From: Pseudonocardiaceae bacterium | Lineage (GTDB): Bacteria; Actinomycetota; Actinomycetes; Mycobacteriales; Pseudonocardiaceae | NCBI GenBank assembly: GCA_050699975.1 | Contig: JBOHGH010000008.1 | Span: forward strand, 976 to 64,975 | Direction of reading: 5' to 3' | Length of the DNA stretch: 64,000 nucleotides | The notes under the pieces: model-generated | What the model was told of the DNA's origin: nothing | What the model saw: only the letters and a program-made list of their open reading frames with translations | The model's database searches: none | Position numbers and translations under genes: made by a program | Shown: positions 52,151-55,755 of the stretch, in pieces | Layout: each line of letters opens with the position of its first letter | How positions within the stretch are numbered: position 1 is the first letter of the stretch

Positions 52151-54388
52151 ATGCAGCCCTATGAGCTGCCAGACTTCTACATGCCGTATCCCGCTCGGTT
52201 GAACCCCCATCTGGACACGGCGCGTACGCACACCAAGGCGTGGGCCCGCGAGATGGGAATGCTGGACGCGCCTGGGGCGAACATCTGGGACGAGGCCAAG
52301 TTCGATTCCATGGACTTCGCCTTGCTCTGCGCGTATACCCATCCCGACGCGCTGAGCTGCGAGCTTGACCTGGTGACTGATTGGTACGTCTGGGTGTTCT
52401 ATTTCGACGATCACTTCCTGGAGATCTACAAGCGCAGCCAGGATCAGGCCGGCGCGAAGGAGTACCTCGACCGGCTGCCCGCGTTCATGCCGATGAATCC
52501 GGCCGATCCACCACCGGAGCCGACTAATCCGGTCGAGCGCGGGCTGATCGACCTGTGGGCGCGCACCATCCCCAACAGGTCATTGGACTGGCGGCGGCGG
52601 TTCTTCGAGAGCACCAAGAACCTCCTCTACGAATCGACGTGGGAGCTGTCCAACATCAGCGGGAGCCGGGTCCCGAACCCGATCGAGTACATCGAGATGC
52701 GCCGCAAGGTCGGCGGCGCCCCCTGGTCGGCCGACCTCGTGGAGCACGCCGCGTTCGTCGAGGTCCCGGCCAGGATCGCGGACAGTCGACCGATGCGGGT
52801 CCTCAAGGACACGTTCGCCGACGGGGTGCACCTCCGCAATGACCTCTTCTCCTACCAGCGGGAAACCGAAGAGGAAGGCGAGATCAACAACTGCGTCCTG
52901 GTGCTGGAGCGGTTTCTGGAGGTCAGCCCGCAGTGCGCCGCCGACTTGACCAACGACATCCTGACCTCCCGGCTGCAGCAGTTCGAGAACACCACCTTCA
53001 CCGAGTTGCCGTCCCTGTTCGAGGAGTGCGGCCTGAACCCGCCTGAGCGCGAGAGTGTCCTGCTCTACGTCAAGGGCCTGCAGGATTGGCAATCAGGTTG
53101 CCATGAGTGGCACCTGCGGTCGAGCCGGTATATGAACGAGACGTCGACTCGTGAACCGTCGGTAATAGATCGACTGCTCAGTGGGCCCATCGGCTTGGGT
53201 ACTTCGGCAGCGCAGCTCGAGCTGTCACCCGGGACTTTGGGTCTACAAAGATTCAAGAGTCACACGCACCTGCCCTACGCTGCGGTGGGGCCAACGACCC
53301 TGCCCAAGTTCTACATGCCGTACACCGCGCGGATCAACGCCAATCTGGAGCGGTCGCGTCAGCATTGCATCGACTGGGCGCGCCAGATGGGGATGCTGGA
53401 GTCACGGCCCGGGGGTATCGGCATCTGGGATGAGGAAAGTCTCGCGTCGTTCGATTTCGCCGTCTGCGCGGCCAGGCTCCATCCGGATGCATCCGGCCCT
53501 GAGCTTGACCTGTCCTCGGCCTGGCTGACCTGGGGTACCTACGGCGACGACTACTTTCCGGCCGTCTTCGGGCCGACCCGCGACATGGTGGGCGCGAAGG
53601 TGTTCAACGCCAGGTTGTCGCTGTTCATGCCGCTGGATTGCAGCGCCACTCCCCCACCGGCCAACCCGGCTGAAGTGGGCCTGGCCGACCTGTGGATCCG
53701 GGCTGCCGCCCCGCTGCCCATCGATCAGCGGCGTCAGGTCCGGCAGGGTGTCGAGGACATGACGGCAAGCTGGTTGTGGGAGCTCGCGAACCACATCCAG
53801 CACCGGATCCCCGATCCGGTCGACTATATCGAGATGCGCCGCAAGACGTTCGGCTCAGATCTCACAATGAACCTGGCCCGCATCGAGCGGGCTGCGCGGA
53901 TCCCACCCGTGGTATTCCGCACCCGAGCGATGCGCGGGCTGGAGAACTCGGCGCAAGACTACGCCTGCTTCACGAACGACATCTTCTCCTACCAGAAGGA
54001 AATCGAGTTCGAAGGCGAGTTGCACAACTGCGTGCTGGTCGTTCAGAAATTCCTCGACATAGATCGTGCGCGGGCGGTCTCGGTGGTCAACGACCTGATG
54101 ACCTCGCGAATGCTCCAGTTCGAGCACATCATCGACGCCGAGCTGCCCGCCGTCGCAGACGATGTCAACCTGGACGGGGATTCCCGCGAGGCACTGGACG
54201 CCTACGTCGTGGGACTACAAGACTGGATGGCCGGCATTCTCGACTGGCATATGTTGACCCGCCGTTATCGCGAAACGGCTTTGCGGAGACGCTACCGGAC
54301 GCCACCACAGCGGTTCGGCGGCCCCACCGGGCTGGGCACTTCCGCTGCTGTTATCGGATTACTGAGCAGCATGGGGGCTCCAGTCTGA
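52151..54388 (+). CDS. geoA: Germacradienol/geosmin synthase (two-domain class I terpene cyclase)
   Basis: N-domain DDHFLE + NDLFSYQRE; C-domain DDYFP + NDIFSYQKE. The start [20 protein letters not shown] matches the typical geosmin synthase N-terminus. ORF open from TTG 52139. Confidence 0.9.
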
Positions 54389-54426
54389 ACTCGACTTATC
54401 GGTACTTGAGTGATTGGTGGTGACCG

Positions 54427-55755
54427 GTGTCTGTGCTGTCCCGTGTGTCCGCGCCCGCGGCCACCCATGACCTGGCGGGCGTGGTGGCCGCCCTGCTTTC
54501 CAACCCAGAACGCACTGCCCCGAGGGACCTTCCCGGAACCGACGGAGATCAGCTGCCCGAGGACGGAGATCAGCTACCCGAGGACGAAAACGAGCCAGCT
54601 GCGTCGGTGGTAGGCCGGCTCGTCACCGGCCCCACGGGGCTCGGTACGTCGGCGGCTCGGATCCCGTGGCAGGGCACCTCCGCTGGCGAGGCGGTTGCAG
54701 CCACTGGCCGTGGCGCGCAACCCCGCATACCCGACGATCCCACCGGATTAGGACCCTCTGCCGCGTGGGTTTCGGTCGAGGGGCCCACCGGCGGTGAGTC
54801 AGATTCAGAGCTGTACTGCCCTCCGGCCGTCCGTGACGACAAAGCCCTTGGTGAGGCAGTCAACGACCGCCTGGTCGACTGGGCCGGGCAGGTCGGGATC
54901 TACCCCGGACAGCTCGACCGCGTGCGGGCGGCCAATTTCGGACGTCTGATGATGCTCACCCATCCGGCCACGGATGACCCTGACCGGCTGCTGGCGGCAG
55001 CGAAGTGCGTCCTGGCGGAGTGGGCTACCGACGACCACTTCCTCGACGAGGAGTCCCTGGGTGCCGATGCGAAGCTGATCGGCTCGCGGCTAGGGATTGC
55101 CTACGCGGCAGTGGATCCGGTTGATCTTCCGGTCAGCTACGCGCCCCAGCTCGACAAGGCTCTTTCGGAGGAGCCGGTCGCGGTCGCGTACCGCTCGGCT
55201 TTCGAACACCTTGCCCAGTACGCCACAGCGACGCAGGTAGCCCGGCTCCGTCACGAGCTGTCGGTCATGTACATGGCCTACAACCATGAGGCGAACTGGC
55301 GTGCCACCGGGCGCACCCCGCCGGTCTGGGAGTATCTGACGCATCGGCATGAAAACAGTTTCTTGCCGCCCATGGTGTTGGTCGATCCGATTGCCGGCTA
55401 CGAGCTTCCCTCCTTCGAGTTCGCCGATCGGCGGGTGCGCCGTGTGTTTTGCTTGGCCGGTAGTGCGAGCGTGATTCTGAACGATCTGTACTCGATGGCC
55501 AAGGAATCTGACACGGACTTCGACCTGCCCAAGGTGATCGCCGCCGAAGAGAAGTGCTCTCCACAGGAAGCGATCAAGCGAACCGTGCAGATCCATAACG
55601 AGCTGATGCACACCTTCGTCGAAGAGGCGGCCGTCCTCAGCCACCTGGGCTCGCTTGCGCTGCGTCGTTTCCTGGCCGACATATGGGCCTGGCTCGGCGG
55701 CAACCGCGAGTGGCACAGCACCACCGAGCGATACCACGGCGCAAGTAATGCGTGA
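54427..55755 (+). CDS. 2-methylisoborneol synthase-type class I terpene cyclase with a ~110-aa disordered N-terminal extension
   Basis: DDHFLDEE and NDLYSMAKES metal-binding motifs. It lies immediately upstream of the GPP methyltransferase, as in known MIB operons. The N-terminus is Pro/Gly/Asp-rich. Confidence 0.8.
   Translation: MSVLSRVSAPAATHDLAGVVAALLSNPERTAPRDLPGTDGDQLPEDGDQLPEDENEPAASVVGRLVTGPTGLGTSAARIPWQGTSAGEAVAATGRGAQPRIPDDPTGLGPSAAWVSVEGPTGGESDSELYCPPAVRDDKALGEAVNDRLVDWAGQVGIYPGQLDRVRAANFGRLMMLTHPATDDPDRLLAAAKCVLAEWATDDHFLDEESLGADAKLIGSRLGIAYAAVDPVDLPVSYAPQLDKALSEEPVAVAYRSAFEHLAQYATATQVARLRHELSVMYMAYNHEANWRATGRTPPVWEYLTHRHENSFLPPMVLVDPIAGYELPSFEFADRRVRRVFCLAGSASVILNDLYSMAKESDTDFDLPKVIAAEEKCSPQEAIKRTVQIHNELMHTFVEEAAVLSHLGSLALRRFLADIWAWLGGNREWHSTTERYHGASNA
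54541..54582 (+). repeat. 21-bp tandem duplication (gacggagatcagctgcccgag x2, 1 mismatch) encoding DGDQLPE twice
   Basis: Read directly; in frame, within the disordered N-terminus of the MIB-type cyclase. Confidence 0.9.

What the first reader, a model, noticed from the sequence alone, without database searches (positions are those of the whole stretch)
53183..54765. A GP[TI]GLG[TP]SAA decapeptide occurs four times in the two terpene cyclases, always in predicted disordered segments: candidate shell-targeting motif
Seen directly. The four copies are: [13 protein letters not shown] in the geosmin synthase interdomain linker (53183-53212); [13 protein letters not shown] 13 residues from its C-terminus (54320-54349); [13 protein letters not shown] in the MIB-type cyclase N-terminal extension (54628-54657); and DDPTGLGPSAAWV in the same extension (54736-54765). 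The motif lies outside the catalytic alpha-helical cyclase folds, and codon usage differs between copies, so it is conserved at protein level rather than recently duplicated DNA. Encapsulin cargo is normally recruited through short conserved peptides in disordered tails. A motif shared by two unrelated-length cyclases next to two shell genes fits that role. The polyprenyl synthase and methyltransferase lack it.
Basis: partly seen in the sequence, partly recalled or inferred. Interest (0 to 1): 0.65.

Follow-up and report, generated by a model that had tools for sequence, protein, structure and literature searches.

The report
Known encapsulin cargo-loading peptide in terpene cyclases
The repeated GPxGLGxSAA peptide in the geosmin and 2-methylisoborneol synthases is real, but it is the already published tag that loads these enzymes into Family 2B encapsulin protein shells, so this locus is an ordinary, already annotated example.

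Summary
P.GLG.SAA occurs exactly four times in the six-frame translation of the window, at the stated coordinates and only in the two cyclases (about 0.01 expected by chance). All four copies lie in AlphaFold2 segments with pLDDT below 50, outside the cyclase folds. They differ mostly by synonymous codons.

Andreas & Giessen 2021 (PMC8346489) described GPTGLGT in 2-MIB synthase N-termini and [11 protein letters not shown] between the geosmin synthase domains and again at its C-terminus. They proposed these as encapsulin targeting sequences. Loading was then tested for S. griseus 2-MIBS (PMC11550324) and M. xanthus GeoA (bioRxiv 10.64898/2026.07.21.739788). There the peptides act redundantly and bind the luminal three-fold pocket of the shell.

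NCBIfam models score both cyclases and both shell proteins above their curated cut-offs. An identical public protein is already named [quoted passage not shown].

Three small additions come from this work. The four published pocket residues are conserved in both shell proteins. The two GeoA copies are in register with the enzyme's internal domain duplication. The combined geoA–mibS two-shell operon recurs in Pseudonocardiaceae MAGs. No loading was tested at this locus.

Interest is low and the novelty rating is "already known".

The parts
50612..52114 (+). enc1: Family 2B encapsulin shell protein (HK97-like SrpI domain with a cNMP-binding-fold insertion). The true start is probably downstream of 50612, because the family model aligns from aa 50.
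   Evidence: Pfam PF19307 5.6e-136 and PF00027. NCBIfam NF041163 scores 768 bits against a cut-off of 400. Pocket residues L296, L317, F463 and Y474 (codons 51497, 51560, 51998, 52031) match Sg Enc L264, L285, F430 and Y441.
52139..54388 (+). geoA: two-domain germacradienol/geosmin synthase-type cyclase, the cargo. The database homologue starts at ATG 52151 (745 aa).
   Evidence: NF041168 f2_encap_cargo3 scores 1216 bits against a cut-off of 1200. PDB 5dw7 S. coelicolor GeoA N-domain, E=1.5e-147. A 100% identical public protein is named encapsulin cargo terpene cyclase.
53183..53212 (+). CLP copy 1 ([10 protein letters not shown]), in the tail after the N-terminal cyclase domain (the interdomain linker). 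It corresponds to CLP1 of M. xanthus GeoA.
   Evidence: pLDDT<50; it aligns column for column with copy 2. Literature.
54320..54349 (+). CLP copy 2 ([10 protein letters not shown]), in the tail after the C-terminal cyclase domain, 12 residues from the end. It corresponds to CLP2.
   Evidence: offset of 25-26 aa after WHxxxxRY in both halves across 80 loci.
54427..55755 (+). mibS-type single-domain cyclase (2-methylisoborneol synthase family) with a disordered N-terminal extension of about 125 aa, the cargo-loading domain.
   Evidence: NF041167 f2_encap_cargo2 scores 518 bits against a cut-off of 400, and its profile starts at aa 68, the first motif. PDB 3v1v 2-MIBS E=2.6e-50 and 4zq8 E=2.8e-53. 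AF2 pLDDT<50 for aa 24-126.
54628..54657 (+). CLP copy 3 ([10 protein letters not shown], followed by RI), the canonical and nearly universal copy of 2-MIBS-type cyclases.
   Evidence: Among the 130 P.GLG copies in 120 homologues, the adjoining positions are almost fixed (G 118, T 127, S 114, A 124, R 125 of 130); P, G, L and G were set by the search pattern.
54736..54765 (+). CLP copy 4 (DPTGLGPSAA, followed by WV), a degenerate second copy. Only 23 of 120 homologues have two copies.
55822..56676 (+). Geranyl diphosphate 2-C-methyltransferase. It supplies 2-methyl-GPP to the MIBS-type cyclase and has no motif.
   Evidence: NF041943 equivalog scores 544 bits against a cut-off of 400. No motif found.
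56726..58156 (+). enc2: second Family 2B encapsulin shell protein, about 72% identical to enc1.
   Evidence: NF041163 scores 769 bits. PDB 9bix and 9bhu, E=1e-193 to 1e-197. Pocket residues L273, L294, F439 and Y450 (codons 57542, 57605, 58040, 58073) are conserved.
58173..59240 (+). Polyprenyl diphosphate synthase. It is a member of the encapsulin-associated PT family, but it has no N-terminal extension and no motif.
   Evidence: NF041169 scores 491 bits against a cut-off of 450, aligned over aa 13-354. It starts 16 nt after the enc2 stop.
59270..62016 (+). ispH and dxs paralogues (MEP-pathway precursor supply), closely spaced downstream; ispH and dxs overlap by 4 nt. They are context for the system, not cargo.
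   Evidence: Pfam LYTB 2e-96; DXP_synthase_N 6.7e-96.

Best explanation
The four GPxGLGxSAA peptides are cargo-loading peptides (CLPs) of a Family 2B encapsulin system.

The locus is a closely spaced array on one strand: enc1, geoA, mibS, GPP methyltransferase, enc2, polyprenyl synthase, ispH, dxs.

Proposed mechanism:
- enc1 and enc2 are HK97-fold shell proteins carrying an external cNMP-binding-fold domain. They self-assemble into a T=1 shell of 60 subunits, probably of mixed composition.
- During assembly, the flexible glycine/proline/alanine-rich peptides dock by hydrophobic contacts into the conserved pocket at the luminal three-fold axes. That pocket is formed by Leu, Leu, Phe and Tyr residues. 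Docking tethers the enzymes inside the shell.
- The peptides lie in the tail after each GeoA cyclase domain and in the N-terminal extension of the MIBS-type cyclase.
- Each enzyme carries two copies, so binding is multivalent and redundant. The two enzymes use the same tag and would compete for, or share, the same 20 sites per shell.

Shown here: motif presence, specificity, position in low-confidence segments, family membership, and pocket conservation.

Shown in the literature for homologues: that such peptides contribute to loading and bind at the three-fold pocket.

Inferred for this locus: loading itself, a mixed shell, and co-packaging of both enzymes.
For: - The motif is exact and far beyond chance.
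- It is conserved at protein level. Synonymous differences dominate between the copies. Third-codon positions vary freely across 92 copies in 80 loci.
- All copies lie in pLDDT<50 segments outside the cyclase folds.
- It is portable. It sits C-terminal to each GeoA domain but N-terminal to the MIBS domain.
- It is specific. In six-frame translations of 80 GeoA loci, 96 of the 103 matches to P.GLG[TVMSP]S lie in GeoA, 4 in MIBS-type or related cyclases, and 3 appear spurious.
- NCBIfam cargo models NF041168 and NF041167 and shell model NF041163 all score above their cut-offs.
- The pocket residues named for Sg Enc (L264, L285, F430, Y441) are identical in enc1 and enc2.
- GeoAs next to a shell gene more often keep both copies than those without one (19/38 against 5/29, Fisher p=0.009). 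The same holds for the linker copy (p=0.001).
- Published experiments on homologues support the role: PMC8346489, PMC11550324, 10.64898/2026.07.21.739788.
Against: - No experiment or complex model was made for this locus.
- In S. griseus the motif-bearing region was not required for loading, only helpful. In M. xanthus each single CLP deletion cost only about 30%. No atomic model of the bound peptide exists.
- The motif is also frequent in GeoAs with no shell gene within 10 kb (21/29 have at least one copy, and the C-terminal copy is equally frequent). Adjacency is therefore not needed for its conservation. Whether those genomes carry shells elsewhere could not be checked here; the preprint reports 88%.
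- The enrichment tests are confounded by phylogeny (mostly Streptomyces against Myxococcota and Pseudonocardiaceae).
- Copy 4 (DPTGLGPSAAW) departs from the consensus at three conserved positions and may be weak or decaying.
Confidence: 0.85

Rival explanations
1. The decapeptide is only a minor or incidental part of the interaction. Loading is driven mainly by the bulk glycine/alanine/proline-rich character of the disordered regions and by other conserved blocks. One such block is the conserved first 35 residues of the MIBS-type extension. The motif itself might be conserved for another reason, such as protease resistance or solubility of the free enzyme.
For: In S. griseus, removing the motif-containing region CLD_D reduced loading but did not abolish it, and the authors propose redundant binding that is not strictly sequence-specific. 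Single CLP deletions in M. xanthus GeoA cost only about 30%. A second conserved N-terminal block exists in this lineage. The motif persists in GeoAs with no adjacent shell gene.
Against: It is the only strongly conserved element shared by two unrelated disordered contexts, and in homologues it occurs in one to three copies per protein. A synthetic GPTGLGTS peptide alone gave density at the three-fold pocket, and combined CLP changes reduced loading to about 20%. Within the loci examined, the motif is essentially restricted to cyclases of encapsulin-associated families.
Confidence: 0.1
2. The motif serves the enzymes themselves. It could be an interdomain hinge, an active-site cap or a folding/oligomerisation element, unrelated to the shell.
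For: One copy lies in the GeoA interdomain linker. Deleting both CLPs in M. xanthus GeoA gave insoluble protein. Ref. 23 of PMC11550324 is cited there as suggesting that the N-terminal domain stabilises free terpene cyclases.
Against: The position relative to the catalytic domain differs between enzymes: after the domain in GeoA, before it in MIBS. The motif lies in low-confidence, apparently unstructured segments. The crystallised S. coelicolor GeoA N-domain construct (5dz2, 338 aa) ends before the motif, and the S. coelicolor linker has a degenerate GP---GTSAA. Encapsulation did not change the activity of 2-MIBS.
Confidence: 0.04
3. The repeat is a chance or DNA/RNA-level feature, such as recently duplicated DNA, a regulatory site or a low-complexity artefact of GC-rich coding sequence.
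For: The genome has high G+C (63-71%), and Gly/Ala/Pro-rich peptides are common in such genomes. The repeat finder does group three of the copies as a 31-nt family at 71-81% identity.
Against: The expected count by composition is about 0.01 for the whole window, against 4 observed. Copies differ at 5-7 of 10 codons synonymously, with unrelated flanks. Third positions vary freely across 92 copies. The motif is conserved across phyla at the same protein positions.
Confidence: 0.01

Closest known systems
[quoted passage not shown]
   Same: The architecture is the same: a two-domain geosmin synthase with [12 protein letters not shown] once in the interdomain linker and once near the C-terminus, encoded beside two Family 2B shell genes. 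The M. xanthus locus (L028) shows GPNGLGTSAARL at aa 346 and [12 protein letters not shown] at aa 728, against aa 349 and 728 here.
   Different: This locus is actinobacterial (a Pseudonocardiaceae MAG). It also encodes a second tagged cyclase, a methyltransferase, a polyprenyl synthase, ispH and dxs, and the gene order differs. The residue after SAA is Q or V here instead of R. Nothing has been tested experimentally for this locus.
S. griseus EshA/Sg Enc with its 2-MIBS cargo-loading domain (Andreas & Giessen, Nat Commun 2024, PMC11550324; PDB 9bhu/9bhv/9bi0)
   Same: The cargo is a single-domain 2-MIBS-type cyclase with a disordered, proline/glycine/alanine-rich N-terminal domain of about 120 aa carrying GPxGLGT, next to a GPP methyltransferase and a Family 2B shell gene. 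enc2 matches Sg Enc at E=2e-193 with identical pocket residues.
   Different: The cyclase here is only moderately similar to the crystallised S. coelicolor 2-MIBS (E=2.6e-50), so its product is inferred from the adjacent methyltransferase. It has two motif copies and an extra conserved N-terminal block. There are two shell genes instead of one.
Bioinformatic definition of Family 2B cargo motifs (Andreas & Giessen, Nat Commun 2021, PMC8346489) and NCBIfam models NF041167/NF041168
   Different: None in kind; this locus is one more instance.
Family 2A encapsulin cysteine desulfurase cargo-loading domain (SrpI system; Nichols et al., eLife 2021, PMC8049743)
   Same: The cargo has a long disordered terminal domain with short conserved motifs. 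It binds at the luminal three-fold axis of a homologous HK97-fold shell, and the hydrophobic pocket residues are nearly identical.
   Different: The motifs differ (LARLANEFFS and AASPYYFLDG). The shell lacks the cNMP-binding-fold insertion, and the cargo enzyme class differs.
Family 1 encapsulin C-terminal targeting peptides
   Same: The logic is the same: a short peptide on a flexible tail recruits the enzyme to the shell lumen. (This comparison is from my own knowledge and was not tested here.)
   Different: The consensus and binding site on the shell protomer differ. Family 1 peptides are usually a single C-terminal copy. They are not internal, not N-terminal and not repeated.

Membership tests
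Family 2B encapsulin shell protein | HK97-like (SrpI-like) shell domain | tested here: met
   PF19307 at 5.6e-136 (enc1) and 8.4e-140 (enc2). PDB 6x8m SrpI at 3.8e-88.
Family 2B encapsulin shell protein | Internal cNMP-binding-fold domain insertion, which distinguishes 2B from 2A | tested here: met
   PF00027 at 1.6e-17 (enc1 aa 147-234) and 2.4e-14 (enc2 aa 119-209). NF041163 equivalog scores 768 and 769 bits against a cut-off of 400.
Family 2B encapsulin shell protein | Self-assembly into a closed T=1 icosahedral shell | not testable with these tools
   Inferred only, from 60-70% similarity to Sg Enc and other solved shells (9bhu, 9bix, 9bje).
Family 2 encapsulin cargo terpene cyclase carrying CLPs | Conserved GPxGLGT(SAAR) peptide | tested here: met
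   There are four copies: three fit GP[TI]GLGTSAA and one is degenerate, DPTGLGPSAA.
Family 2 encapsulin cargo terpene cyclase carrying CLPs | Peptide located in disordered regions outside the cyclase fold: the linker and C-terminus in GS-like enzymes, the N-terminal domain in 2-MIBS-like enzymes | tested here: met
   AF2 pLDDT<50 at all four sites. The boundaries of the PDB domains exclude the motifs.
Family 2 encapsulin cargo terpene cyclase carrying CLPs | Encoded next to a Family 2 shell gene | tested here: met
   enc1 ends 24-36 nt before geoA. enc2 lies 970 nt downstream of mibS, after the methyltransferase. All are on the + strand.
Family 2 encapsulin cargo terpene cyclase carrying CLPs | Score above the curated cut-off of the NCBIfam cargo models | tested here: met
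   NF041168 scores 1216.2 against 1200, only just above. NF041167 scores 518.6 against 400.
Family 2 encapsulin cargo terpene cyclase carrying CLPs | Conserved hydrophobic three-fold pocket on the shell lumen (Sg Enc L264, L285, F430, Y441) | tested here: met
   Residues are identical in enc1 (L296, L317, F463, Y474) and enc2 (L273, L294, F439, Y450).
Family 2 encapsulin cargo terpene cyclase carrying CLPs | Physical encapsulation that depends on the peptide | not testable with these tools
   Shown only for homologues.
Germacradienol/geosmin synthase | Two tandem class I terpene cyclase domains, with high similarity to characterised GeoA | tested here: met
   There are two PF19086 stretches. 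PDB 5dw7 at E=1.5e-147. The two halves are 41% identical. The product itself was not tested.
2-methylisoborneol synthase | Single cyclase domain related to SCO7700, with an adjacent GPP 2-C-methyltransferase | tested here: inconclusive
   3v1v at E=2.6e-50, but the best PDB hit is 4zq8, an unnamed 'isoprenoid synthase'. The methyltransferase equivalog is met. The product could be 2-MIB or another C11 terpene.
Encapsulin-associated polyprenyl transferase cargo | Disordered N-terminal domain of 50-100 residues (PMC8346489) | tested here: not met
   NF041169 scores above its cut-off, but the protein is 355 aa, aligns from aa 13, and starts 16 nt after the enc2 stop. There is no extension and no motif. 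It is therefore filed as an operon partner, not as predicted cargo.

The most novel reading that the evidence does not exclude
Two readings are not excluded and, as far as the held literature shows, are not described.

(a) In this Pseudonocardiaceae lineage, one two-component Family 2B shell may co-package both earthy-odorant synthases, geosmin and 2-MIB type, through the same peptide tag. That would make a dual-product terpene nanocompartment in which the two enzymes compete for the 20 three-fold sites.

(b) The two GeoA tags sit at exactly homologous positions of the enzyme's internal duplication. They align column for column and lie 25-26 residues after the last helix of each half in 80 diverse loci. 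The tag therefore probably predates the duplication that created geosmin synthase. On that reading the enzyme descended from a tagged single-domain cyclase, and encapsulation is ancestral rather than an add-on.
Probability: 0.35. Interest if true: 0.4.

Novelty: already known. Interest (0 to 1): 0.15.

Why it matters
For the scan, this finding can be closed. The very protein is already named as encapsulin cargo in public annotation.

The residual value is modest:
- The locus is a clean natural example where two different cargo enzymes carry the same tag beside two shell genes. That makes it a convenient system for asking how cargo ratio and shell composition are set.
- The in-register position of the two GeoA tags offers a simple evolutionary argument about the origin of geosmin synthase.

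Tried and rejected
- **Chance or low complexity** was rejected by the composition-based expectation.
- **Recent DNA duplication or a nucleic-acid element** was rejected by synonymous differences, unrelated flanks and free third positions. One caveat applies: the copies were selected by a protein pattern, so only the third-position variability is informative.
- **Co-occurrence of the motif with adjacent shell genes** was tested on 80 GeoA loci from genome contigs. The linker copy and the two-copy state are enriched next to shells, but the C-terminal copy is not. The test is confounded by phylogeny. The strict pattern also undercounts near-variants such as GPTGFGTS, GPTGIGTS and [10 protein letters not shown].
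- **A search for further cargo classes carrying the tag** in the 80 loci and the window found only GeoA, MIBS-type cyclases and one further ~393-aa cyclase class. Three to four other hits were obvious spurious matches in short out-of-frame ORFs.
- **The polyprenyl synthase as tagged cargo** was rejected: it has no extension and no motif.
- **The promoter/terminator consensus scan** gave nothing useful for operon boundaries.
- **A literature search for a described combined geoA+mibS encapsulin operon** found none in the held library. That is weak evidence of absence.
- **A shell–peptide complex model** was not attempted.

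
Full report
**Observation**

Translating the four stated intervals gives [10 protein letters not shown] (53183-53212), [10 protein letters not shown] (54320-54349), [10 protein letters not shown] (54628-54657) and DPTGLGPSAA (54736-54765). 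The first two lie in a 749-aa ORF (52139-54388; the database homologue starts at ATG 52151). The last two lie in a 442-aa ORF (54427-55755).

A six-frame search of the whole 64-kb window finds P.GLG.SAA at these four places only. Composition predicts about 0.01 occurrences in the window and about 1e-5 per cyclase.

Any two copies share 18-24 of 30 nucleotides and differ synonymously at 5-7 of 10 codons. Copies 2 and 3 encode the same decapeptide with six synonymous differences. The 60-nt flanks are at background identity. The only slip is that 12 residues, not 13, follow the C-terminal GeoA copy.

**What surrounds it**

The + strand carries a tight array of eight genes:
- enc1 (50612-52114)
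- geoA (52139-54388)
- a 2-MIB-synthase-type cyclase (54427-55755)
- geranyl diphosphate 2-C-methyltransferase (55822-56676)
- enc2 (56726-58156)
- a polyprenyl synthase (58173-59240)
- ispH (59270-60229)
- dxs (60226-62016)

enc1 and enc2 each combine a SrpI-like HK97 shell domain with a cNMP-binding-fold insertion. They score 768 and 769 bits on the NCBIfam Family 2B encapsulin equivalog (cut-off 400).

The two cyclases score above the curated cut-offs of the NCBIfam models named [quoted passage not shown]. NF041168 gives 1216 against 1200, and NF041167 gives 518 against 400. The NF041167 alignment starts at the first MIBS motif (aa 68). The NF041168 alignment ends at the end of the C-terminal GeoA motif (aa 737).

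A 100% identical public protein from a Pseudonocardiaceae MAG already carries that cargo name.

**Disorder**

AlphaFold2 models built on alignments of homologues have mean pLDDT of about 70.
- For GeoA (745-aa numbering), pLDDT is below 50 for residues 328-392 and 704-745. These contain the motifs at 345-354 and 724-733.
- For the MIBS-type cyclase, pLDDT is below 50 for residues 24-126, which contain both motifs.

Solved cyclase domains align outside the motifs. The S. coelicolor GeoA N-domain construct 5dz2 ends at aa 334. The 2-MIBS and 4zq8 chains begin to align at aa 93-121.

**Conservation and specificity**

- Among the 120 closest GeoA homologues, 83 have two copies, 8 have three (these have longer C-termini), 27 have one and 2 have none.
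- Among 120 MIBS-type homologues, 84 have one copy, 23 have two and 13 have none. The consensus is [12 protein letters not shown].
- I fetched 80 diverse GeoA loci with up to 10-kb flanks. They span Pseudonocardiaceae, Streptomyces, Streptosporangium, Actinomadura, Myxococcota and others. In their six-frame translations, matches to P.GLG[TVMSP]S fall almost exclusively in GeoA (96 of 103). Four lie in MIBS-type or related cyclases, including a further ~393-aa cyclase class, and three appear spurious.
- Third-codon positions of the fixed residues vary freely across 92 copies (1.26 bits). This excludes a nucleic-acid-level constraint.

**Co-occurrence with shells**

Of the 80 loci, 38 have at least one Family 2B shell gene in the flanks. 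I compared these with the 29 loci that have at least 8 kb on both sides and no shell gene.

| Feature | Shell-adjacent (38) | Non-adjacent (29) | Fisher p |
|---|---|---|---|
| At least one strict copy | 34 | 21 | 0.11 |
| Both copies | 19 | 5 | 0.009 |
| Linker copy | 29 | not printed for this subset | 0.001 |
| C-terminal copy | 24 | not printed for this subset | 0.62 |

The non-adjacent loci are mostly Streptomyces, so phylogeny confounds the comparison. The S. coelicolor linker reads GP---GTSAA.

The 2026 preprint reports that 88% of GeoA genes without a co-localised shell are in organisms that encode a Family 2B encapsulin elsewhere. That would explain retention of the tag.

**Mechanism**

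The literature settles the kind of thing this is.
- Andreas & Giessen 2021 wrote that 2-MIBS-like cyclases carry GPTGLGT in the disordered N-terminal region. They wrote that GS-like cyclases carry [11 protein letters not shown] between the two domains and again at the C-terminus, and that these may be targeting sequences (PMC8346489).
- For S. griseus, deleting the whole N-terminal cargo-loading domain of 2-MIBS abolished loading into EshA/Sg Enc. Extra cryo-EM density appeared at the luminal three-fold axes above L264, L285, F430 and Y441. The motif-bearing sub-region improved loading but was not required (PMC11550324).
- For M. xanthus GeoA, deleting or mutating either CLP cost about 30% of loading, and combined changes left about 20%. 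A synthetic GPTGLGTS peptide gave heterogeneous density at the same pocket (10.64898/2026.07.21.739788).

At this locus the four pocket residues are identical in both shell proteins: enc1 L296, L317, F463, Y474 and enc2 L273, L294, F439, Y450.

I therefore conclude, at about 0.85 confidence, that the four peptides are multivalent, partly redundant cargo-loading peptides. They would tether both cyclases to the three-fold pockets of an enc1/enc2 shell. Loading, mixed-shell formation and co-packaging at this locus are inferred, not shown.

**Small additions**

1. The two GeoA copies are 1137 nt apart, the same period as the enzyme's internal domain duplication (1134-1140 nt).
   - The two halves align at 41% identity, with [15 protein letters not shown] opposite [15 protein letters not shown] in the same columns.
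   - Across the 80 loci both copies sit a median of 25-26 residues after the conserved WHxxxxRY helix of their half.
   - The simplest reading is that the duplicated unit was [cyclase domain + tagged tail], so the tag is older than the two-domain enzyme.
2. The combined arrangement of geoA, mibS, methyltransferase and two shell genes recurs in related Pseudonocardiaceae/Pseudonocardiales MAG loci L001, L003, L005 and L009. Many top GeoA and MIBS homologues share identical longest-contig lengths, which suggests the arrangement is common in this lineage. I found no paper describing it specifically. The literature does note that many Family 2B clusters encode multiple putative cargos.
3. The polyprenyl synthase belongs to the encapsulin-associated PT family by score. 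It lacks the disordered N-terminal domain described for such PTs, and it lacks the motif. I do not predict it to be cargo by this route.

**Rivals**

- A purely enzymatic role as hinge, cap or folding element is unlikely. The position relative to the catalytic domain differs between the enzymes, the segments are predicted unstructured, and truncated enzymes have been crystallised.
- A weaker version of the main explanation remains open: the motif is only one contributor among redundant glycine/alanine/proline-rich contacts. This is in fact what the published mutational data suggest.
- Chance and DNA-level explanations are excluded.

**Verdict**

Interest is low, at 0.15. The most novel reading left open is a dual geosmin/2-MIB compartment that uses one shared tag, together with an ancestral origin of the tag before the GeoA duplication. 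I rate that at probability about 0.35 and moderate interest if true.

Noticed in passing
window 54541-54582: There is a 21-nt tandem duplication at 95% identity. It encodes DGDQLPE twice inside the disordered N-terminal extension of the MIBS-type cyclase, upstream of the first motif copy. It looks like a recent slippage event in a region under loose constraint (family D11).
   Followed up: no
window 54427-54531 (MIBS-type cyclase aa 1-35): A second conserved block sits at the extreme N-terminus: MSVLSRVSAP..DLAG.V.ALLSNP.R.AP.DL. A31 and P32 are invariant in 29 homologues of 66-89% identity. A weak predicted helix spans aa 14-24. The S. griseus study called the GPxGxGT region the only conserved part of its CLD, so this block may be a lineage-specific extra shell contact.
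   Followed up: partly
window 58173-59240: The polyprenyl synthase scores above the cut-off of NF041169 (encapsulin cargo polyprenyl transferase). It has neither the 50-100-aa disordered N-terminal domain described for that class nor the motif, and it starts 16 nt after the enc2 stop.
   Followed up: partly
L008 5379-6209; L010 12712-13563: In two related loci the GPP 2-C-methyltransferase follows geoA directly, with no MIBS-type cyclase between them. The methyltransferase is thus kept without its usual partner at that position.
   Followed up: no
L009 around 12441 (+); L010 around 7989 (-): A third cyclase class of about 393 aa, about 40% identical to the MIBS-type enzyme, carries one N-terminal GPSGLGTSA copy at about aa 43. 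It lies in the same encapsulin neighbourhoods.
   Followed up: no
window 52151-54385: The two halves of GeoA align at 41% identity with no gap through the tails, which places the two motif copies in the same alignment columns. The 1137-nt spacing of the copies equals the period of the internal duplication.
   Followed up: yes
window 48995-50575 and 46328-48518: A large LuxR-family regulator (AAA_16 plus GerE) lies directly upstream of enc1 on the same strand. Further upstream are a carotenoid-oxygenase-like (RPE65) gene on the + strand and an overlapping 238-aa ORF on the - strand (47802-48518) that was not scanned against any family library. These are possible regulatory or tailoring partners of the terpene cluster.
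   Followed up: no
window 50612-50758: The enc1 ORF as listed has about 49 extra N-terminal residues relative to the family model and to enc2. The real start codon is probably further downstream.
   Followed up: no
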